NCBI GenBank assembly: GCA_031422435.1
Contig: JANPLU010000007.1
Location: forward strand, 1 to 40,363
Length of the DNA stretch: 40,363 nucleotides
Direction: 5' to 3'
Source: Acaryochloridaceae cyanobacterium VAR_48_metabat_390
GTDB lineage: Bacteria; Cyanobacteriota; Cyanobacteriia; Thermosynechococcales; Thermosynechococcaceae
Shown here: piece after piece, positions 13,614 to 39,582 of the stretch
Numbering within the stretch: the stretch's first letter is position 1
Layout: each line of letters opens with the position of its first letter
Position numbers and translations under genes: made by a program
Notes under the pieces: generated by a model
The model's input: the letters and a program-made list of their open reading frames with translations, nothing else
Told to the model about the DNA's origin: nothing
The model's database searches: none

Positions 13614-14000
13614 TTACCAAAGGCCTCTTACTGGCTCAGAGTTACTCATGGTGCCTGCTGGAGCTTCATTATCCTGATTGCGGGCATCTGCACAGGTTTG
13701 AGCGGGCGCAGATACACTGACCTTAGGAACTGAAATATCAGGCGCTTCAGTATCGGGTGCAGGCACACCAACGCCTTCACGCAAGAGCTTACCAACATTG
13801 GGGACTAATCGGCTGACATTAGGAACCGATACCCCAACCCCTGGTGATGAGACCTTAACATCATCGCAGTTAACGGTTGGCCCATTTACGTTGATATCCG
13901 ACGACTGAGCCGTTTTAACAGGAACTGCGGAAGCACTAACTGCCCCCAAACATAAGAGCGCAACGCTAGAGGTGGTTAGAACACGAGATAAAAGTTTCAT
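13614..14000 (-). CDS. Hypothetical secreted Val/Pro/Ser-rich protein ending in PVRGLW
   Basis: Sec-type signal peptide with ASA cleavage site, low-complexity body, two mature Cys. Confidence 0.75.
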   Translation of the reverse strand: MKLLSRVLTTSSVALLCLGAVSASAVPVKTAQSSDINVNGPTVNCDDVKVSSPGVGVSVPNVSRLVPNVGKLLREGVGVPAPDTEAPDISVPKVSVSAPAQTCADARNQDNEAPAGTMSNSEPVRGLW

Positions 14001-14165: not shown

Positions 14166-15165
14166 TTAGAGTGACAGCTCTTGAAGATATCCGGTGAGTT
14201 CTACGTACAGCGGTTTGCATCTTGATAGGGGACAGTAGCAGCAGTGGGCAAACCAGTTACGCAAATGATTAGAATCCATTAAATCCATCGCTGTTTTGAT
14301 GAGGGTATCAACCATTTTCGAGGTTGTTGGCGAGAACTGTCGCAGGAAGGCTTTTAACTGTGACCACCAGTGTTCAATAGGGTTAAATTCTAGAGAGTAA
14401 GGAGACATGTACAAAACTCTCGCTCCAACGGCTTCAATCAAAGGTGCAATGGCTTTTACTTTGTGAGCCGCTAGATTATCCATCATGACTACGGCACCCT
14501 TCCAGAGTTGAGGTACAAGACATTTTGAGACATAGACCTTAAAAACAGCAGCATCCATAGAATCATCTATCGTCATGACAGCCAGTACCTTTGAGACACT
14601 AATCGCGCCAATGACGCTAACCTTGCTCCCCCAATAAAAGGGTTTGAAGTCATAGACTCCCTCTCCAGGGACAGCGCGGCCATGGGTTCTCATCAGTCCC
14701 AGTAAAACACCCATTTCACCAAGGAATACTAAGTCTTTAAGGTCTATCCCTCTCACCTGTGACCAATACTCTGCTCTCAGGAGTTGAACTCGCTCACTCA
14801 GGGCTTGGCTAGAGCGGAGCGTTTTTTTTGCGCGGCAAGCCTAATCGCTGGAATGTTCGGCACAGGGTGCTTTGGCTCACCCATAGCCCAGTCGCATCAA
14901 AGAGTAGCTCACAATATTCTGCTAATGTTGCATCGGTCTGGTTCTCGAAGATCGTCATTAACTGGTCTTTATGTTCCATCACGGTACTCACTGACCCGCC
15001 CTGCTTGCGGGGGACGAGATGACCTGCTGTGCGCTTCTGAATGACCCATCGCTCAACGCAGTTTTTGCTCACACCAAAGCGCTGAGCTACTTTTCGGAAG
15101 GAGCTATCTCCCTTTTCAATCGCACTGACAACCCGCTCTCGTAAGTCTATGGAATACGGCTTCAT
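14166..15165 (-). pseudogene. IS630 transposase split at an A8 run (HTH ORF 14809-15165, DDE ORF in the +1 frame ending at 14166); first catalytic Asp replaced by Gly
   Basis: MKPYSIDLRERVV HTH start; +1 frame continues KKTLRSSQALSERVQ...LVFLGEMG (family DE position)...VMMDNLAAHK...YSLEFNPIEHWWSQLK. Confidence 0.8.
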
Positions 15166-31336: not shown

Positions 31337-32260
31337 CTATTCATAGGTCTTTACAGCATCGACCAGTTCGAGAGTAGACACATTGCGGATATCAAACGTG
31401 ATGACATCGGGATGACCAGGAAGCCTCAGTTCCCCTAAGCCAATCCAGCCTTGATGCTGCAACACATACTCTTCCCGATGAATAAATGCCTGACTTTGAT
31501 CTTTTGCCACAATAAACGTGCCATTTGTACTTTGGTCAATCAGCACAAACTTTCCCTTGCGAAAAATAATTTGCACATGGTGGCGGGACGTATAGTCATC
31601 ACAAATTGACAGATCGTTCTCTGAATTGCGCCCAATCGTAAAACCGCTTTGCTCTGGCCTAAGCTGTACCACCTGATCATGGTGCTTAAGCTGAAGAACG
31701 CTTGTAAAAACCGCCGTTGTCGGGAGATTCGTTCTTGCCGTTGTTAGTTCCCGTCGCTCCCAAATAATTTGATGGACGCTAATGCGCCCAGTCTTGCCAG
31801 GGCTGGGGATGCGCTCCATCGGTCGAGTCTGCATCTGAAGCGAAACCGACAGCGCCTGCACTGTTTCTTGACTCGTCAAAATTTGACCCGATTGTGCAAA
31901 GGCCACGATTCGCGCCGCAGCATTGACCGTGCCGCCAAAGATGTCATCATTTTCTGTAATAACGGAGCCAAAGTTTAGCCCAATTCTTAACCCCAACTGA
32001 AGATCGTTCGTGGCAGCATACTGCGTGATGTTTTCCTGCATTTTGCAAGCCGCCCACACGGTCTTGTCAACTTGAGGGAAAATCGCCATAATCTCATCTC
32101 CAATCACTTTAATGACCTGACCCTCATGCTGCTGCACAATCTCAGTCAGACGCGTTAAGCAATTTTCGATAATGATCTTGGCAGCTTCATCCCCCAGAAC
32201 TTCATAGAGTCTAGAACTACGACTAATGTCAGCAAAGAGAACGGTCTGAAACAAACTCAT
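31337..32260 (-). CDS. Class III adenylate cyclase domain fused to a C-terminal FHA domain
   Basis: VLFADI, VIKVIGDEIM, LRIGL, DIFGGTVNAAARI; FHA motifs IGRNSEND, TSRHH, DQSTNGT. Confidence 0.88.
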   Translation of the reverse strand: MSLFQTVLFADISRSSRLYEVLGDEAAKIIIENCLTRLTEIVQQHEGQVIKVIGDEIMAIFPQVDKTVWAACKMQENITQYAATNDLQLGLRIGLNFGSVITENDDIFGGTVNAAARIVAFAQSGQILTSQETVQALSVSLQMQTRPMERIPSPGKTGRISVHQIIWERRELTTARTNLPTTAVFTSVLQLKHHDQVVQLRPEQSGFTIGRNSENDLSICDDYTSRHHVQIIFRKGKFVLIDQSTNGTFIVAKDQSQAFIHREEYVLQHQGWIGLGELRLPGHPDVITFDIRNVSTLELVDAVKTYE

Positions 32261-34061: not shown

Positions 34062-34406
34062 ATGCGTTACCTTAATTCTTTATTTGCGGCAGGTTCGGGT
34101 TTTGCTGTTGCAGCCACCCTCCTGATACCGTTTCAGACTGCCGCTGTCGCTAATGAAATGAAAGGAACTCAGATTGCTGCTGTAGGACGAGAGTCTCAGC
34201 CTACAACAGCAGTATCTCTCAATCAAACAAAAGTCGTTTGCAGCCGCAATAAGCCACTGTCTTTGAATGCCGAAGGGGTCAAGGTCGCCTCAAGTATTGC
34301 CCCTCAAAGTGCAGATGGGGTTCCCAATGTAATTCGGCTTTTTTGTCGAGACGTCCGCATCAACACGATTGTGGTTCGTGACTATTGCGCAGTTATTCGT
34401 AACTAG
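34062..34406 (+). CDS. Small secreted hypothetical protein with C-terminal CRDVRINTIVVRDYC motif
   Basis: Signal peptide ending AVA; 114 aa; motif shared with the downstream protease. Confidence 0.8.
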   Translation: MRYLNSLFAAGSGFAVAATLLIPFQTAAVANEMKGTQIAAVGRESQPTTAVSLNQTKVVCSRNKPLSLNAEGVKVASSIAPQSADGVPNVIRLFCRDVRINTIVVRDYCAVIRN

Positions 34407-34482
34407 CTTTTTGTCAGGCTTTTAAGGAGTCATTCCCTAAGCAGCGCTTTCCATCGTTTTACTACAGACCCAACGCTCAGCC

Positions 34483-36033
34483 ATGAACGCCTCCTCCCGC
34501 CTAACCGCCCTCCTATTGGGAACAACCGTAATGGTGGCTCAGCCTTTCGATTGGGGAAAGGCCGTTGCAGGAACTTCTATTGGCAAACTTGCGCCTGAAG
34601 TGACCGTTTTTATTCAAGGGGTTAATAACCCTGACAACTTTGGCTCTGGCGTGGTGATTGGCCACTCTGGCAAAAGCTATCTTGTTTTAACCGCAGCCCA
34701 CGTCGTTGCAGCAGCAGATCGATACACCATTCAGGCCAGCGACGGCGTACAGTATACGCTACAGAACATTAGACGAATTCCTAATGTTGATATGGCGATC
34801 GTTCAGTTTGAAAGCAGCAGCAGCTATACCGTTGCTCAGATGGGCAACTCCGATGACGTTAGCCTAACGACAGGGGTATACGTTGCGGGCTATCCAAAGC
34901 CGGGACAAAACATTAGAGTGCCCGTGCTAACCATTACAAATGGTGAAATTGCCCAAGTTCTTCCAGCCAATGCTTCCGTTGATGGTTACGGGTTTGCCTA
35001 CACAAATTCAACCCGCGCTGGCATGAGTGGTGGGCCTGTGTTCAACAGTCTTGGAGAAGTGATCGCCATTCACGGACGCAAAGAAGGTGAGGCGGGCGGT
35101 GGAGCAACCAATGGCGCCTGGCTGAATCTTGGGATTCCTATTAATCGCTATAAAGGAGCGGGTGCAGGCGGCGCTCAAATTGCCGCAGCACTACCCAATG
35201 TTGATCTTCAGCAAAAGGCGCGGGAAGCTGCCCAGCGTCAGGCTCAAGAGCAGGCTCAAAGACAAGCCCAAGAGCAGGCAAAGCGAGCTGCTTTAGAGTC
35301 CGAACGTCAGGCTCAAGAGCAGGCTCAAAGACAAGCGCAGCAGCGGCAGGCGGTGGAGGCTCAGCGGCAGGTTCAAGAACAGGCTCAACGGCAGGCGGTA
35401 GAAGCTCAGCGGGAAGCTCAAGCACAGCAACAGGCTGCTTTAGCAGCGCAGCAGCGGCAGGTTCAAGAACAGGCGCAGCAACAAGCAGCGGCAGTTCTAA
35501 AGGCACAGCAGCAAGCTCAACAGAACATCCAGGCGCAGCAGGCCAATGCCCAGCGCCAAGCTCAAATTTCTGCTTCTGCAAAGAATCTTCTGGCGAGTGC
35601 GTCACCCTTTGCAGCCTCAGCGATACCCGCACGATCTTCAACAATCTCTTCTACGCGTGAGGTTTGTAAGGACGTTCGCATTAACACGATTGTGGTTAAG
35701 CGCTGTAATACTGAAGTGGTCAATCAAATTCAGGAGTCAGCCTCTGTGCCCTCCTCTAACAGCTCAGGTAATGCGGTCAATACTGGAAATGCGCGTGCAG
35801 TAGGCGGCAACTATCAAGCGGCTATAGATGACTATACGTCTGCAATTCAAGGGAATTCTGGCCTGGCGATCGCATTTTTTAATCGCGGCCTAGCACACTA
35901 TAACTTGGGCAATAAAGATCGGGCGATCGCAGATTTTTCTAGAGCTGCAGATTTATTTAGATCCCAAGGAGACTCCCAAAAGCTACGGCAAACGCAGGAT
36001 ATTCTTCAGGCGTTGACGCAATCTAACTCTTAG
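34483..36033 (+). CDS. Secreted trypsin-like serine protease with Gln/Ala coiled-coil stalk, CKDVRINTIVVKRC motif and C-terminal TPRs
   Basis: Triad TAAH / VDMAIV / GMSGGP; QRQAQEQA repeats; AIDDYTSAI, FFNRGLAHYNLG...AIADFSRAA TPRs. Confidence 0.9.
   Translation: MNASSRLTALLLGTTVMVAQPFDWGKAVAGTSIGKLAPEVTVFIQGVNNPDNFGSGVVIGHSGKSYLVLTAAHVVAAADRYTIQASDGVQYTLQNIRRIPNVDMAIVQFESSSSYTVAQMGNSDDVSLTTGVYVAGYPKPGQNIRVPVLTITNGEIAQVLPANASVDGYGFAYTNSTRAGMSGGPVFNSLGEVIAIHGRKEGEAGGGATNGAWLNLGIPINRYKGAGAGGAQIAAALPNVDLQQKAREAAQRQAQEQAQRQAQEQAKRAALESERQAQEQAQRQAQQRQAVEAQRQVQEQAQRQAVEAQREAQAQQQAALAAQQRQVQEQAQQQAAAVLKAQQQAQQNIQAQQANAQRQAQISASAKNLLASASPFAASAIPARSSTISSTREVCKDVRINTIVVKRCNTEVVNQIQESASVPSSNSSGNAVNTGNARAVGGNYQAAIDDYTSAIQGNSGLAIAFFNRGLAHYNLGNKDRAIADFSRAADLFRSQGDSQKLRQTQDILQALTQSNS
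35209..35565 (+). repeat. Intragenic Gln/Ala/Arg/Glu repeat region (coiled-coil stalk)
   Basis: Exact 32-bp duplication CGTCAGGCTCAAGAGCAGGCTCAAAGACAAGC at 35236-35267 and 35305-35336 plus further degenerate copies. Confidence 0.85.
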
Positions 36034-36186
36034 CGACTGCCTATTGCCAAGGGTTCGGAATGAAGTAAAACGGACTCCGCATCCATCTTCATACTTTTGT
36101 GATAGATGATCGGTTTCAAAGGAAGTATTCCCATACTAGAAACGTAAGCGTTTGTCTTAATCTGAATAGCAGCTTATCTATAAAAT

Positions 36187-37047
36187 ATGCGTTTAAATGC
36201 TTTAAAGGTTGGGGGGTTATTGTGCGGGAGCTTGCTGACCTTTGCGTGTCGGTCAACTTCGGCAACAGCGCCACATCAAATTCAACCTACTGCTCAGATA
36301 GCGCCATCTCCTTTACGGCATAGCTTTGCTCTAACCCAGAATAAAATGCAGCTTTTACAGCGGAATGCTCGTGCCATTACCGTCAAGGTTCTTTCTGGAG
36401 ATGACTGGGGTTCCGGAATCTTGATTCAGCAGCAGGGACAGCGCCATACCGTATTAACCAATGAGCATGTTCTGTGGATAGGCGATCGCTACACAGTTCA
36501 AACCCATGACGGAAAACAGCACCTTGCACAACGACTATCGTCAGGCAAGTTTGGAAAAAATGACCTAGGGCTGCTGGAATTTAGTAGCGCCCCATCTGTT
36601 ACCTATCCGGTTGCGGTCATAGGCTGCTCCCTGAAGCTATCTGCGGGTACCCCTGTCTATGCAGCAGGATTTCCACTGCCACTCATGGAATCTTCACCGA
36701 AAGGATTCAAATTTACGACAGGCGCGATCTCGCTCATTGTGTCTAAAGCCTTGGAAGGGGGGTATCAGGTGGGTTATTCCAACAACATTGAAAAAGGCAT
36801 GAGCGGCGGACCAGTTCTCAATGCGAAGGGTGAAGTAATTGCCATTAACGGAATGCATCAGGAGCCACTGTGGGGAGACCCCTATATTTACCAAGATGGT
36901 TCTAAACCGAAGTCAAGCTTATTTCCCATGTTTTCGCGCTCAAGCTGGGCGATTCCGATGGAGACTGCTTTGCAAACCAAAGCCCTAACCGCAGCGCATC
37001 TTTCCCGTCAGTGCCCCGCCAACCCTATTAAACAGGCTCAAGGATAA
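36187..37047 (+). CDS. Trypsin-like serine protease, probable lipoprotein
   Basis: LLTFAC lipobox-like; triad TNEH / NDLGLL / GMSGGP; NGMHQEPLWGDPY. Confidence 0.88.
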   Translation: MRLNALKVGGLLCGSLLTFACRSTSATAPHQIQPTAQIAPSPLRHSFALTQNKMQLLQRNARAITVKVLSGDDWGSGILIQQQGQRHTVLTNEHVLWIGDRYTVQTHDGKQHLAQRLSSGKFGKNDLGLLEFSSAPSVTYPVAVIGCSLKLSAGTPVYAAGFPLPLMESSPKGFKFTTGAISLIVSKALEGGYQVGYSNNIEKGMSGGPVLNAKGEVIAINGMHQEPLWGDPYIYQDGSKPKSSLFPMFSRSSWAIPMETALQTKALTAAHLSRQCPANPIKQAQG

Positions 37048-37092: not shown

Positions 37093-39285
37093 CTACCAAA
37101 GCGGTTCTGCACCAGAGGAGCCGCTGTTACTACTGGGGGGCGGAGCCGCCTCCTGCGAAGAGCCGCCACCACTGCCGTTACCCCAGAGGGGTTCTTTTGC
37201 AGCGGCTGGAGGAGGTGGATCTTGAGCCACTGAAGAAGACCCAGAATTCCAATTATCTGCGGGAGGCGGAGCCGCGTTAGAGCCGCCGCCTTCACCTAGG
37301 GGTTCTGCACCACTGGAGAAACCACTGGAACCGGAGTAGGCAGGGGCTGTTGCGGCGGCTTCTCGTTGGCGCTGCCATTGGGCCGCTTCTTCAGCGGCGG
37401 CTTGCTTTTGAATCTCTGTATCTAGTTCTTTAGACTTTTTGAGGTAAGCCTGTTTTTGAATTTGCCGCTGTGGCGCGCTTAAGGAGGTGCTTGGAATTGT
37501 ATCAAGGCGCTGAGTGGCCTGCTGGAGCTTTGTTTTATTGTCGGTTAAGGCGGCAAGAGAATTTGGCGCTTTCTTTTGGGTCAACACTGTATTGGCGATC
37601 GCACCAGCCTGCTGAAGATCTTGCTGTGCCTTTGTTTCAAGAATAATTTTCTCCTGAAGATTTTTGAGCTGCTTTTGATAATTGGGCAGTAGCTTTTGGG
37701 CATCACTATAGCGGTCAACTGTCTTTGGCACGGTACCAAGCTGCTGAACAGACTGCTGAAGCTGAGTTTGAGCACCTTTGAGATCGCCAAGAGATTTGGC
37801 GCTGTTAATGATGCCTAGAGCGGTCTCGGCATTATTGCTGGCTTTTTTATAGACAGAAGCAAATTTTACGTTTGCAGAGCAGTTATTGAGCGCATTACAG
37901 ATTGGCTCAATGTTAGGCGATGCAAGGGTGGTGATCGCCCCCAGTGCCACAATTGCCGAGCCTCCAAAGGCAATCACCTTAAGTGGTGACCCTCTATAAA
38001 TGTTGGCGTCTAGATTTGAACTGGGCTTAGAAATTTCAGCAGGTCGAGCACTAGAAATAACGTAGGTGCCCACAGACGTTTGCTCTGATGGGGTCTCCAA
38101 TGTACCAATTGAAGTTGGCTCTGAGGCCGTATTAGATCCCTTTGGAACGCCATTCCCAACGCTAATGCCGCCATTAAATCTAGCAGCCGCATGGATTGAG
38201 CCGATTGAAGTTGGCTCTAGGGCTACACTCCCCGATCCAATGCTGTTGCCTGGTCTAGTATTAACTGTAATACCGCTATTTGAGAAGCCTTGAGACCTCT
38301 TAGAACTGATTTTAGAATCCCAACGCGAAGAATCATTGAAACTGCCGCTATTGGGGGTAGCATCACTGCTGCCCATCAACGAATGTGTCGTAACAGTCGC
38401 TTGATTAAGAATGGTTGGAGAATTATCTTGACGGTACATCGCCAGCGCATTGAGCGCCTCTAGCGCTTCTTTTGCAGAGGGATAGCGCTGACGAAAATCG
38501 TAGGCCACCATTTTGTTAATAATAGAGGCAAGTTCTGGGCTAATAGAGGCACGGTCTTGCCACAGGATCTCGGCCGTTGATTCATCTTCAGGGAGCTGGC
38601 CTAGGGCAGGGTTGAGTCCAGTTAGCGCATAAATGCCAATCATTCCTGTGGCGTATACATCGCTGCTCATCCGAGGACTGCCTCGTAATTGCTCACCTGG
38701 CATGTATCCTGGCGTACCAACAATGACCGTGTGGGCCGCAATGTGGCTATTTTCGTCTGACGCCTGGCTGGCAACCTGTTTGACCGCGCCAAAGTCAATT
38801 AAAACAATTTGACCATCGCTTTCACGACGAATAATATTAGACGGCTTAATGTCTCGATGAATAACCTGCTTTTGATGAACAAAGCTCAGCGCATAAAGGA
38901 TATCTTTGAGCAGCTTGGTGACGTAGCTCTCACTCCACTGCTGCCCTGTGGATAATTCTTGGTAGAGGCTGGTGCCAGCAATATACTCTTCAACCAGATA
39001 AAACTCATTGTGTTCTTCAAAGTGAGCCAGTAACTGCGGAATATTGGGGTGAGAGCCAAGTTGATGAAGGGTTCTTGCTTCTTCGTCAAATAAGCGCTTT
39101 GCAATGTTTAGCTTAGCCTCATCGTCAACAGCCGTTTTTAGCTTTTTGATCACGCACTGGAACGCGTTGGGCAAATGCTCATCTTCAGCCAAGAAAGTTT
39201 CGGCAAAACTTCCTTCGCCAAGCTTTTGAAGAACCCGATAGCGTCCTGCAAGTTTGTTTCCAGATGAAAGGCTGATAACGTCCAT
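37093..39285 (-). CDS. Hanks-type membrane Ser/Thr protein kinase with extracytoplasmic helical domain and Gly/Ser/Pro tail
   Basis: LGEGSFAET, CVIKKL, HRDIKPSN, DFG, GTPGYMPGEQ, SDVYATG; TM VIAFGGSAIVALGAITTLA; ATG 39285 preferred. Confidence 0.93.
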   Translation of the reverse strand: MDVISLSSGNKLAGRYRVLQKLGEGSFAETFLAEDEHLPNAFQCVIKKLKTAVDDEAKLNIAKRLFDEEARTLHQLGSHPNIPQLLAHFEEHNEFYLVEEYIAGTSLYQELSTGQQWSESYVTKLLKDILYALSFVHQKQVIHRDIKPSNIIRRESDGQIVLIDFGAVKQVASQASDENSHIAAHTVIVGTPGYMPGEQLRGSPRMSSDVYATGMIGIYALTGLNPALGQLPEDESTAEILWQDRASISPELASIINKMVAYDFRQRYPSAKEALEALNALAMYRQDNSPTILNQATVTTHSLMGSSDATPNSGSFNDSSRWDSKISSKRSQGFSNSGITVNTRPGNSIGSGSVALEPTSIGSIHAAARFNGGISVGNGVPKGSNTASEPTSIGTLETPSEQTSVGTYVISSARPAEISKPSSNLDANIYRGSPLKVIAFGGSAIVALGAITTLASPNIEPICNALNNCSANVKFASVYKKASNNAETALGIINSAKSLGDLKGAQTQLQQSVQQLGTVPKTVDRYSDAQKLLPNYQKQLKNLQEKIILETKAQQDLQQAGAIANTVLTQKKAPNSLAALTDNKTKLQQATQRLDTIPSTSLSAPQRQIQKQAYLKKSKELDTEIQKQAAAEEAAQWQRQREAAATAPAYSGSSGFSSGAEPLGEGGGSNAAPPPADNWNSGSSSVAQDPPPPAAAKEPLWGNGSGGGSSQEAAPPPSSNSGSSGAEPLW

Positions 39286-39582
39286 GGTGCAGTAGGTTGA
39301 GAATGCAGTTAATTTATATTCTCCCACATTCAATTTTGTGGAAGGTTAGGCTTTAAAAATAGGTGATTTATATTGATCATAAATCTACCCCAGCATAAGC
39401 GACCCAGCCCCTGATCTGACGGACGCAATGTTAAGCTCTGTAACAGATACAGCTTGCTCTCGGTTAAGGGATCTCAGCAACCGCTTATGGACATTCAGCA
39501 GGATAGGACATCAATGACAGAAACGGCTGACTCAAACTCAGAGCATTTCGTGCAGCTTGACGATTTGTGCAAGTCTTCTGAT

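What the first reader, a model, noticed from the sequence alone, without database searches (positions are those of the whole stretch)
34062..37047. Small secreted protein and adjacent protease share a Cys-flanked DVRINTIVV motif: candidate peptide-protease system
Seen: the 114-aa secreted protein ends in C-R-DVRINTIVV-R-D-Y-C (34344-34388). The next gene's protease carries C-K-DVRINTIVV-K-R-C (35665-35706) between its Gln/Ala stalk and its TPRs. The 9-aa core is identical, and its two nucleotide differences are both synonymous (GTC/GTT, ATC/ATT). The rest of the two proteins is unrelated. A second trypsin-like lipoprotein follows. Inference: a disulfide-closed beta-hairpin kept in two co-expressed exported proteins could be a co-assembly or strand-swap tag, a tethered auto-regulatory ligand mimicked in trans by the small protein, or a peptide released by proteolysis as a signal. 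I do not recognise this motif from any described family.
Basis: partly seen in the sequence, partly recalled or inferred. Interest (0 to 1): 0.85.

Follow-up and report, generated by a model that had tools for sequence, protein, structure and literature searches.

The report
Shared hairpin links protease and partner
A small exported protein and the neighbouring periplasmic protease of a narrow group of cyanobacteria carry the same tiny cysteine-framed hairpin, kept almost unchanged and changed together once, so the two very likely work as a pair by a mechanism not yet described.

Summary
The 114-aa exported protein (34062-34406) ends in C-R-DVRINTIVV-R-D-Y-C. The next gene is an HtrA-like serine protease (34483-36033) with a helical Q/A stalk and a TPR end, and it carries C-K-DVRINTIVV-K-R-C. 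These are the only two copies in the 3.7-Mb genome.

In relatives, the small protein's 18-residue hairpin region is identical in 10 genomes, although all 18 of its codons vary at the third position. The core C-x2-[VIL]-R-I-N-T-I...C is present in 54 of 56 protease clusters. The two genes are adjacent in all 12 genomes that have either one (12 of 48 in the family). In one derived lineage the tip Thr is Met in both proteins.

AlphaFold2 predicts a beta-hairpin with the N-T turn at its tip in both proteins, at moderate confidence.

The best reading is that the hairpin tip is a shared recognition element. The protease carries a tethered copy and the small protein a free copy, which acts as a trans mimic or partner that regulates the protease. 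Binding, the disulfide and co-expression are untested. The second protease is not specific to the pair. I found no described family.

The parts
34062..34406 (+). Gene for the small exported hairpin protein (114 aa). By eye it has an N-terminal hydrophobic signal-like segment, cleavage probably after ..AAVA near residue 30. The middle is variable and the C-terminus is invariant.
   Evidence: ORF. Family of 78 clusters. Only 10 representatives at 50% identity among 1.84 billion proteins. No Pfam or NCBIfam family.
34227..34259 (+). Conserved block TKVVCSRNKPL (aa 56-66) with the third conserved cysteine, C60. It is predicted as a strand next to the hairpin.
   Evidence: C60 is invariant; V58, S61, N63 and P65 are at least 90% conserved. 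AF2 strand 56-62, pLDDT about 69.
34338..34391 (+). Small-protein hairpin region LFCRDVRINTIVVRDYCA (aa 93-110; Cys95 to Cys109 = 34344-34388). The turn is at N101-T102.
   Evidence: 73 of 78 clusters have exactly CRDVRINTIVVRDYC. Position table. In 10 genomes the 18 aa are identical while 19 of 54 nt vary, 18 of them at third codon positions. AF2 strands 89-100 and 103-113, pLDDT 77-84.
34407..34482 (.). 76-nt spacer between the two genes, same strand. No terminator-like site was found on the + strand.
   Evidence: In 10 related loci the gap between the ORFs as called is 44-217 nt, same strand.
34483..36033 (+). Gene for the stalked HtrA-like serine protease (516 aa). By eye it has a signal-like N-terminus.
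   Evidence: The nearest solved relatives are HtrA/DegP/DegQ proteases (best E 6.9e-11). 56 orthologous clusters are aligned in A4.
34642..35154 (+). Catalytic domain (Pfam Trypsin_2 aa 54-196, extended to the conserved ..LGIPINRYK at aa 224). Triad H73, D103, S182.
   Evidence: H73, D103 and S182 are invariant in 56 sequences.
35206..35598 (+). Q/A/E/R-rich helical stalk (aa 242-372).
   Evidence: AF2 helices 242-297 and 301-372. Stalk plus linker is 112-202 aa (median 155) with 63-77% Q/A/E/R/K in 56 orthologues. A sub-threshold compositional match to tolA_full (27.5 bits against a cut-off of 59.45).
35653..35718 (+). Protease hairpin (aa 391-412; Cys395 to Cys408 = 35665-35706), TREVCKDVRINTIVVKRCNTEV. 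The turn is at N401-T402.
   Evidence: AF2 strands 391-400 and 403-412, pLDDT about 70. 54 of 56 clusters match C..[VIL][RK][IVL]N[TS][IVL].{3,7}C. Among the 53 with a 12-residue loop, V394, C395, R399, I400 and C408 are invariant, and N401, T402, I403 and R407 are present in 52 of 53.
35758..36027 (+). C-terminal TPR domain: two repeats plus a capping helix (aa 426-515).
   Evidence: Pfam TPR_1/TPR_2/TPR_11. AF2 helices 426-515, pLDDT 81-91.
36187..37047 (+). Second trypsin-like protease (286 aa). It is a neighbour and not specific to the hairpin pair.
   Evidence: Trypsin_2, 73 bits. Relatives at E <= 1e-30 in 25 of 48 family genomes, including genera without the small gene.

Best explanation
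This is a clade-restricted two-gene periplasmic module. One partner is an HtrA-like serine protease built as: protease head, long helical stalk of variable length, Cys-framed beta-hairpin, small TPR domain. The other is a small exported protein whose only strongly conserved part is the same Cys-framed hairpin. The shared tip (R-I-N-T-I-V around the N-T turn) is a recognition element. I propose that it is a ligand for one binding site belonging to the module. My favoured candidate site is the concave face of the protease's own C-terminal TPR domain; the protease head is the second candidate. On this model the protease carries a tethered (cis) copy and the small protein supplies a free (trans) copy that mimics or displaces it. 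That would switch the protease between a self-engaged and an open state, controlling activity, oligomerisation or docking.

Shown here: the motif, its uniqueness in the genome, protein-level purifying selection, strict co-occurrence and adjacency of the two genes, one joint T->M change, and a predicted hairpin in both proteins.

Inferred: export, the disulfide, any binding, the identity of the site, competition, and whether the effect is activating or inhibiting.
For: (1) There are only two copies in the 3.7-Mb genome, in adjacent same-strand genes.

(2) Selection acts on the protein and not on the DNA. In 10 genomes the 18-aa LFCRDVRINTIVVRDYCA is identical, while all 18 third codon positions vary and there are 10 distinct DNA versions. 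Over the RINTI codons, small-versus-protease differences within a genome (2.8 of 15 nt) are about the same as between genomes (3.0), so there is no sign of ongoing gene conversion.

(3) 77 of 78 small-protein clusters and 54 of 56 protease clusters keep the core. The two protease exceptions are variants of the same loop. The most distant small proteins (E 3.7e-5 to the profile) still read FCRDVRINTIVV.

(4) Co-occurrence: the small gene is found in 12 of 48 genomes of the family, one copy each. Both hairpins are seen in all 12. The nearest protease outside this set (G272, 52% identity in the head) has no stalk, no such hairpin and no small gene. Two paralogous trypsin-TPR genes of the same genome were not found to carry the motif, and the one inspected has no small gene upstream.

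(5) Co-variation: in G312 the small protein reads RINMI and the protease reads RINMI. A diverged sister group shows the same: 5 small-protein sequences and 7 protease sequences all have M, and four small/protease pairs sit on contigs of equal length. G312 is nested among T/T lineages. No mixed T/M pair was seen in the 12 genomes.

(6) AF2 predicts a hairpin with the N-T turn in both proteins.

(7) Conservation shared by the two proteins is centred on the tip (R, I, N, T, I, V and the Cys) and does not run along one strand. This fits a finger-in-pocket ligand.

(8) Weak lead for the TPR as the site: L470 in the TPR 'FNRGLA' helix is invariant in 56 T-lineage proteases and is I/F only in the M lineage.
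Against: No result here shows binding of anything to anything. The co-variation is a single evolutionary event. In G312 the two hairpins share an identical 12-nt tract, ATTAATATGATC, so a short gene conversion cannot be excluded. The L470 lead is one of 17 lineage-specific positions, and I218V and R222F in the protease head changed too, so the binding site is not identified. The small protein's hairpin is much more constrained than the protease's (15 of 15 positions against about 9 of 14). It also has a third conserved Cys (C60), which a simple 'free copy of the same ligand' model does not explain. Its Cys pair is offset by one residue relative to the symmetric pair in the protease (5+2+6 against 5+2+5 around the turn). 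Both AF2 models are of modest confidence (mean pLDDT 55 and 63).
Confidence: 0.45

Rival explanations
1. Direct hairpin-to-hairpin pairing (co-assembly tag). The two hairpins bind each other in a pseudo-symmetric beta-sheet or tip-to-tip contact. The small protein would then become a stoichiometric subunit, or a cap, of the (probably oligomeric) stalked protease.
For: The same residue changed at the same position in both partners (T->M). A contact across a pseudo-twofold axis predicts exactly this without needing a third change elsewhere. The core sequences are identical and are predicted as hairpins in both. The genes strictly co-occur and are adjacent.
Against: Shared conservation is concentrated at the tip and on both faces, not along one edge strand. 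The small protein's hairpin is far more constrained than the protease's, which is unexpected for a symmetric contact. There is no experimental or predicted contact.
Confidence: 0.2
2. Substrate-like loop. The Cys-closed hairpin occupies the protease's active-site cleft, as a tethered pseudo-substrate in the protease and as a free canonical-type inhibitor (or preferred substrate) in the small protein. It would work like Bowman-Birk or sunflower trypsin-inhibitor loops, or like periplasmic ecotin (all recalled, not tested).
For: The loop is Cys-framed, with an invariant Arg just before the turn followed by beta-branched residues. Both proteins are apparently exported to the same compartment (N-termini read by eye). 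The catalytic triad is intact, so there is an active site to regulate.
Against: The loop is 12-13 residues long and has no proline, unlike the 9-residue Bowman-Birk loop (recalled). No inhibitor family matched. A stalk of 112-202 residues between head and hairpin is an odd way to tether a pseudo-substrate. Reactive loops of inhibitors usually vary, whereas this one is invariant. The nearest solved relatives are HtrA proteases, which I recall as preferring aliphatic residues rather than Arg at P1.
Confidence: 0.12
3. Released peptide signal. The invariant C-terminal ~22 residues of the small protein are cut off by the adjacent protease(s) and act as a disulfide-cyclised extracellular or periplasmic signal, sensed for example by the neighbouring membrane Ser/Thr kinase. 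It would work like exported Phr-type propeptides (recalled).
For: The pattern is a variable pro-region with an invariant C-terminal peptide. There are proteases next door. In the window and some relatives a Ser/Thr kinase with a transmembrane segment and a long extracytoplasmic tail lies adjacent.
Against: It does not explain why the same hairpin sits inside the protease. The second conserved block with C60 is predicted to pair with the hairpin as a small sheet, which suggests a folded domain and not a released peptide. No conserved cleavage site is evident. In one search a kinase ORF is evident only in L004 and L010, and in L007 and L008 the downstream genes are others, so it is not a constant neighbour (judged by eye from the ORF lists). 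No transporter or modifying enzyme is in the window.
Confidence: 0.08
4. No interaction. The hairpin is an independently useful structural or stability element (or a tag for a general machinery) that the small gene acquired by partial duplication of the protease gene. The similarity is kept by parallel constraint or occasional gene conversion.
For: The similarity is limited to about 14 residues. An identical 12-nt tract in G312 is compatible with a conversion. There is a faint extra resemblance between T[KR]xVC before the protease hairpin and TKVVC in the small protein.
Against: Synonymous sites are saturated and within-genome similarity is no higher than between genomes. There are only two copies per genome, which argues against a general sorting tag. 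Strict co-occurrence and adjacency and the joint T->M change maintained in a diverged sub-clade are hard to explain without coupling.
Confidence: 0.1

Closest known systems
HtrA/DegP/DegS family (S1C) periplasmic serine proteases regulated through an appended peptide-binding domain
   Same: The head is Trypsin_2 with an intact H-D-S triad. The nearest solved relatives are HtrA/DegP/DegQ. It appears to be exported, and a C-terminal protein-protein interaction domain is attached. The idea that a short peptide ligand controls the protease parallels activation of DegS by peptides bound to its PDZ domain (recalled).
   Different: There is no PDZ domain; a two-repeat TPR stands in its place. A helical stalk of 112-202 residues and a Cys-framed hairpin lie between head and TPR. 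Scores are far below every NCBIfam HtrA/DegP cut-off (47 against 416 bits). A dedicated small partner carries a copy of the protease's own hairpin.
Periplasmic proteases that use TPR modules: BepA (protease fused to a TPR domain) and NlpI-Prc (TPR adaptor plus protease). Recalled, not tested.
   Same: A TPR module is combined with an envelope protease, presumably to bind partners or substrates.
   Different: The catalytic classes differ (metalloprotease and tail-specific protease). I know of no shared hairpin or small mimic protein in those systems.
Disulfide-closed beta-hairpin protease inhibitors (Bowman-Birk loop, sunflower trypsin inhibitor-1). Recalled.
   Same: A short Cys-framed hairpin with a basic residue just before the turn, encoded next to a serine protease.
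   Different: The loop is longer (12-13 against 9 residues) and has no proline. It is invariant where inhibitor loops are usually hypervariable. It is also present inside the protease itself. No family match. Inhibition was not tested.
Exported propeptides processed to C-terminal signalling peptides (Phr type). Recalled.
   Same: Signal peptide, variable middle and invariant C-terminal stretch, with secreted serine proteases at hand.
   Different: The protein is much longer, with a second conserved block and three cysteines predicted to form a small sheet. The 'peptide' also occurs inside the protease.

Membership tests
HtrA/DegP (S1C) proteases | Chymotrypsin-fold protease domain with a His-Asp-Ser triad | tested here: met
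   Pfam Trypsin_2, 90.3 bits against a cut-off of 27.6. H73, D103 and S182 are invariant in 56 orthologues. The best PDB matches are HtrA/DegP/DegQ.
HtrA/DegP (S1C) proteases | One or two C-terminal PDZ domains | tested here: not met
   No PDZ family appears among the Pfam hits at E <= 0.01. The C-terminus is TPR.
HtrA/DegP (S1C) proteases | Score above the NCBIfam equivalog or subfamily cut-offs (degP_htrA_DO, HhoA_HhoB_HtrA and others) | tested here: not met
   47.4 bits against 416.2, and 27.7 against 450.
TPR repeat proteins | TPR repeats above the Pfam gathering score | tested here: met
   TPR_1 38.9 against 27.8, and TPR_2 34.9 against 27. AF2 helical pairs 426-515, pLDDT 81-91.
Bowman-Birk / canonical hairpin inhibitors | Match to an inhibitor family model; 9-residue Cys-closed loop with cis-proline (consensus recalled) | tested here: not met
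   The small protein matched 0 Pfam and 0 NCBIfam families. The loop is 12-13 residues without Pro.
Bowman-Birk / canonical hairpin inhibitors | Tight, substrate-like inhibition of a serine protease | not testable with these tools
   Needs an enzyme assay.
C-terminal sorting tags with a dedicated processing enzyme (PEP-CTERM, GlyGly-CTERM and similar; recalled) | The tag is carried by several to many proteins per genome and ends in a transmembrane helix plus a basic tail | tested here: not met
   There are only two copies in the genome, one of them internal. The sequence is charged and beta-branched, not a transmembrane helix.
RiPP or pheromone precursors | Precursor with a conserved recognition region plus dedicated modifying or export genes nearby | tested here: inconclusive
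   The pattern is an invariant C-terminus with a variable N-terminal part. No modifying enzyme or transporter is among the 32 other ORFs of the window. Processing was not testable.
COP23 domain proteins (neighbours in related loci) | Pfam COP23 domain | tested here: not met
   The small protein has no COP23 hit. The conserved COP23 motif RC..VS..FQ differs from the hairpin.

The most novel reading that the evidence does not exclude
A previously undescribed way of regulating a periplasmic HtrA-like protease. A 14-residue disulfide-framed hairpin built into the protease, between a periplasm-spanning stalk and a TPR domain, serves as a tethered ligand. A dedicated small exported protein presents an even more constrained copy of the same hairpin in trans, to switch the enzyme's state. 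In this role a hairpin/TPR pair would replace the PDZ/C-terminal-peptide logic of classical HtrA proteases. The two tips co-evolve (T->M in both).
Probability: 0.3. Interest if true: 0.75.

Novelty: new variant of a known kind. Interest (0 to 1): 0.6.

Why it matters
HtrA-type proteases are the main quality-control and signalling proteases of bacterial envelopes. Their regulation by PDZ domains and C-terminal peptides is a textbook case.

Here a cyanobacterial lineage has replaced the PDZ with a stalk, a Cys-framed hairpin and a TPR domain. It has also added a small partner that copies the hairpin. If the cis/trans hairpin model or the co-assembly model holds, this gives a new and very compact recognition element (about 14 residues) with a natural matched variant (T/T against M/M). 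That variant makes the hypothesis directly testable by swap experiments.

It would also assign a role to a protein family that currently has no annotation. If no interaction exists, it remains an unusually clear example of extreme purifying selection on a mini-motif in two unrelated proteins.

Tried and rejected
- **Complex prediction**: protease residues 362-516 against small-protein residues 45-114 gave 'no answer' (ipSAE 0.00 and 0.00; controls not run). This is neither support nor evidence against. The protease head was not tested because the cap is one job.
- **Expression**: no RNA holder was listed among 5 runs, all DNA metagenomes, so co-transcription could not be examined.
- **Metagenome scan for other tip variants**: the pattern F-C-R-[DE]-[VIM]-R-I-N-x-I, with x not T/S/P/A, gave 35 loci. 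None of the 35 showed the family's hairpin context: 14 gave an unrelated frame to a looser check and 21 none. The M-lineage contigs are therefore not in that collection in this form.
- **Locus of P0200**: the search for its own locus in genome contigs returned only an already known T-lineage locus.
- **ESM Atlas**: best score 0.77, below the level of a lead.
- **Structure search with the small-protein model**: best Z 4.2 among 48,161 chains, within noise, and the model is of low confidence.
- **RNA families**: Rfam gave 0 matches over the window. No terminator-like site lies between the two genes on the + strand, but the scan is a simple consensus and its counts are at chance level.
- **Literature:** full-text search for 'RINTIVV' found 0 papers. 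'COP23 + cyanobacteria + protease' found 1 irrelevant paper (listing only). A five-term search for cyanobacterial trypsin-like TPR periplasmic proteases listed 12 of 47 papers, none on this system by title or abstract. In PMC2605481 I read only the passages found, and 'TPR' occurs 0 times. No supplements were read.
- **Earlier findings of this scan**: nothing.
- **COP23 idea, rejected**: I considered that the hairpin derives from or mimics a COP23 segment, because one COP23 neighbour reads EVRCNTVSNRF. Eight COP23 sequences show that the conserved motif is RC..VS..FQ, with the N-T not conserved.
- **TonB-box / TolB idea, not pursued:** a resemblance of NTIVV to TonB-box-like or TolB-N-terminus-like strand-augmentation motifs is recalled only. 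No TonB- or TolA-type domain was seen in the window, and the stalk's tolA_full hit is compositional and below the cut-off.
- **Second protease as part of the system:** its phyletic range is wider.


Full report
**1. The observation**

The ORF list shows a 114-aa ORF at 34062-34406 (+) ending ...NVIRLFCRDVRINTIVVRDYCAVIRN. After a 76-nt gap comes a 516-aa ORF at 34483-36033 (+) containing ...SSTREVCKDVRINTIVVKRCNTEVVN....

A degenerate DNA pattern for DVRINTIVV hits only these two places in the window, and none of 100 dinucleotide-preserving shuffles gave even one match. The two 27-nt cores differ at two synonymous third positions, and the DNA on either side is unrelated. In the whole 3.70-Mb assembly (136 contigs) these are the only two copies, both by DNA pattern and by six-frame regex, including looser versions.

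Pfam finds Trypsin_2 (aa 54-196) and TPR repeats (aa 435-492) in the large protein, Trypsin_2 in the next gene (36187-37047), and nothing in the small protein. NCBIfam also has nothing for the small protein.

**2. Anatomy**

*The protease.* Its nearest solved relatives are HtrA/DegP/DegQ (best E 6.9e-11). The triad H73/D103/S182 is invariant in 56 orthologous clusters. There is no PDZ domain, and it scores far below the NCBIfam HtrA cut-offs.

AlphaFold2 with a 56-sequence alignment (mean pLDDT 63) predicts the following:
- a head, whose second barrel is poorly modelled;
- one long helix over aa 242-372;
- a beta-hairpin, 391-400 and 403-412, with the turn at N401-T402 (pLDDT about 70);
- a confident helical TPR domain, 426-515 (pLDDT 81-91).

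The stalk plus linker varies from 112 to 202 residues among orthologues and is 63-77% Q/A/E/R/K.

*The small protein.* By eye it has a hydrophobic, signal-like N-terminus. After that come a variable region, a conserved block TKVVCSRN.PL with C60, a variable loop, and the hairpin. AlphaFold2 (78-cluster family, 35 sequences used; mean pLDDT 55) is only confident for strands 56-62, 89-100 and 103-113 (pLDDT 69-84), again with the turn at N101-T102.

In the protease the two cysteines are symmetric about the turn (5+2+5), as expected for a cross-strand disulfide. In the small protein they are offset by one (5+2+6), and there is a third conserved cysteine. The disulfides themselves are inferred.

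**3. Conservation**

The small protein belongs to a small family: 78 clusters at 90% identity, and only 10 representatives at 50% identity among 1.84 billion proteins, all 90-121 aa long. Overall identity falls to about 37%. The most distant member reaches only E 3.7e-5 to the family profile. Yet FCRDVRINTIVV is kept in every one, except for variants described below. 73 of 78 clusters read exactly CRDVRINTIVVRDYC.

In 10 genomes with an identical 18-aa LFCRDVRINTIVVRDYCA, 19 of 54 nucleotide positions vary. 18 of these are the third positions of all 18 codons, and all 10 DNA versions differ. Selection therefore acts on the protein.

In the protease family, 54 of 56 clusters match C..[VIL][RK][IVL]N[TS][IVL].{3,7}C. 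The two exceptions are recognisable variants, VCENIRIGSVTVPRC and VCEDKDVRVNTIVVKRKEC. The position table shows what the two proteins share: the cysteines and the tip, [VIL]-R-I-N-T-I-[VI]. The outer positions of the protease hairpin vary (K/E, D/N/E, S/V/T/I, K/P).

Over the RINTI codons, the two copies within a genome differ as much (2.8 of 15 nt) as copies from different genomes (3.0). There is thus no sign of continuing gene conversion.

**4. Distribution and linkage**

- A pattern for C-x2-[VIM]-R-I-N-T-I was run over 401 genomes of the class. It found paired hits in 9 genomes, all in the window's family. In eight the two hits lie on one strand about 1.2-1.6 kb apart. In the ninth they lie on two contigs. 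It also found 6 single hits elsewhere, two of them with in-frame stops, against 2 hits of the reversed control pattern.
- A profile of the small protein found one copy each in 12 of 48 genomes of the family: all 10 of the window's genus including the window's genome, and 2 single-genome genera.
- Both hairpins are seen in all 12 (with for the two fragmented assemblies). In all 10 related loci from named records the small gene is followed directly, on the same strand, by the protease gene.
- The nearest protease outside this set (G272, 52% identity in the head) has no stalk, no small gene, and a short CQLPGDQSC loop at the corresponding place.
- Two paralogous trypsin-TPR genes in the window's own genome were not found to carry the motif. 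The one inspected has a glycosyltransferase-like gene upstream instead of a small gene.
- The second protease (36187-37047) has relatives at E <= 1e-30 in 25 of 48 genomes, including genera without the pair. It is a frequent neighbour and not a specific component.

**5. Co-variation**

One genome of the window's genus (G312) was missed by the T-specific pattern. Its small protein reads FCREVRINMILVKDYC and its protease reads VCEDLRINMIVTKRC. The otherwise invariant tip Thr is Met in both.

A search with that protease region found three further protease clusters, all reading VCEDIRINMIVTKRC. The cluster of a small protein reading FCRDVRINMIVVKDYC has 5 members. Four of them sit on contigs of exactly the same lengths (66222, 6523, 12098 and 4049 bases) as members of the M-type protease clusters. 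I take this to mean the same contigs, which is an inference.

The G312 small protein and that cluster share only 68 of 109 residues, so the M/M state has been kept through considerable divergence. In a tree of the protease heads, G312 is nested inside the hairpin clade (node support 94/97), with T/T lineages both basal and sister to it. M/M is therefore derived. No mixed pair was seen.

This is one evolutionary event. In G312 the two genes share an identical 12-nt tract around the ATG codon, so a short conversion cannot be excluded. Even so, its retention in both genes fits a requirement that the tips match.

Sites that are invariant in 56 T-lineage proteases but changed in the M lineage are I218V, T402M and L470I/F; L470 lies in the TPR 'FNRGLA' helix. 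This is a weak pointer to where the tip might bind.

**6. Mechanism**

Two facts need explaining together. First, the same hairpin tip is under near-absolute selection in two otherwise unrelated, co-inherited, apparently exported proteins. Second, the tips changed together.

*Preferred model (0.45).* The tip is a ligand for one site of the module. The protease carries it tethered next to its TPR domain, and the small protein offers it in trans as a mimic or competitor that switches the protease's state. Three points favour this model:
- The shared conservation is centred on the tip and not on one edge strand.
- The free copy is more constrained than the tethered one, as expected if it must compete without the advantage of tethering.
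- The 17-residue flexible linker between hairpin and TPR would allow folding back.

*Main rival (0.2).* The two hairpins pair directly and pseudo-symmetrically. This explains same-position co-variation most economically.

*Other rivals.*
- A substrate-like or inhibitor loop in the active site (0.12).
- A released peptide signal (0.08).
- No interaction at all (0.1).

None of these is excluded by data. The one complex prediction allowed gave no answer, and no RNA data exist for co-expression.

**7. Comparison with what is known, and novelty**

The protease works like, and is distantly related to, HtrA proteases. It fails two membership features: it has no PDZ domain and it scores below the family cut-offs. 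The TPR-plus-protease combination recalls BepA and NlpI-Prc. The Cys-framed hairpin with a basic residue before the turn recalls Bowman-Birk-type loops. Both comparisons are from recall and no model matched.

The small protein matched no family (Pfam, NCBIfam), no Atlas lead and no fold above noise. The motif string is in none of the 8.4 million full texts searched, and two broader searches found nothing on this system.

I rate it a new variant of a known kind: an HtrA-like envelope protease with a new appended module and a new dedicated partner. The interest is moderate to high because nature has provided a matched T/T against M/M pair that makes the hypothesis cleanly testable.

**8. Surroundings**

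The window otherwise holds ordinary chromosomal genes and no Rfam match. Upstream of the pair lie argD-like and adenylate-cyclase/FHA genes on the other strand. Downstream lie the second protease and a convergent membrane Ser/Thr kinase.

In more distant loci the arrangement differs. A porin-like gene precedes the small gene; Pfam OprB plus SLH was confirmed for one of these. A COP23 gene lies between the two proteases; Pfam COP23 was confirmed for three.

Noticed in passing
window 13614-14000 (-), and own-genome contigs C1, C14, C27, C29, C109: 10 of 2918 ATG-ORFs of at least 120 aa in the genome end in ..LW, against about 4.9 expected from composition. Seven of these end in GLW, five of them as [VI]RGLW. 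Most have signal-like N-termini, and two of them match COP23. This may be an undescribed C-terminal tag.
   Followed up: partly
window 37093-39333 (-): A Ser/Thr protein kinase (Pkinase, 141 bits) with a mid-protein hydrophobic segment and a long low-complexity tail. The tail carries EPLW twice, once as the very C-terminus. Kinase ORFs in L004 and L010 end the same way.
   Followed up: no
L008:8097-8756, L010:8386-9021, L012:8263-8862; L048:4352-5164 (-): A COP23-domain gene lies between the hairpin protease and the second protease in three distant loci; these end ..ALW or ..SLW. A COP23-like gene (by eye) also lies directly upstream of the hairpin-less nearest protease in G272. The window's locus has no COP23 gene, although the genome has four elsewhere.
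   Followed up: partly
L006:4111-5832, L008:4007-5734, L010:4069-5814, L012:3237-5105, L049:2-1465: A large porin-like gene ending ..TTF[TS]F directly precedes the small gene in five related loci. L011 has the same in two pieces. Pfam OprB plus SLH was confirmed only for L008. In the window an argD-like gene on the opposite strand stands there instead.
   Followed up: partly
L009:3829-5028: In one relative the hairpin protease is followed by a tandem paralogue without the stalk. Its loop is a degenerate copy, CATVKINTISTPSPFC.
   Followed up: partly
window 34227-34259 versus 35653-35676: TKVVCSRN in the small protein faintly resembles TREVCKDV, the strand leading into the protease hairpin. T-[KR]-x-V-C is conserved in both families. 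This may be a trace of a partial duplication.
   Followed up: no
L042:1435-2796 (own genome, contig C58): A paralogous trypsin-TPR protein without stalk or hairpin ends in another Cys-framed loop, ..KDCQQSIRTLCDR.
   Followed up: no
window 14166-15165 (-): Two adjacent ORFs match the DDE_3 and HTH_Tnp_IS630 transposase families. This looks like an IS630-type element whose transposase is in two frames.
   Followed up: no
window 34092-34094 (small protein residue 11): Most family members have Cys in ..AACSG.. within the signal-like segment. This is lipobox-like, but only about 10 residues from the start. The window's protein and its closest relatives have Gly there.
   Followed up: no
window 31337-32260 (-): An adenylate/guanylate cyclase catalytic domain fused to an FHA domain lies two genes upstream. 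It is conserved in the closest related loci.
   Followed up: no
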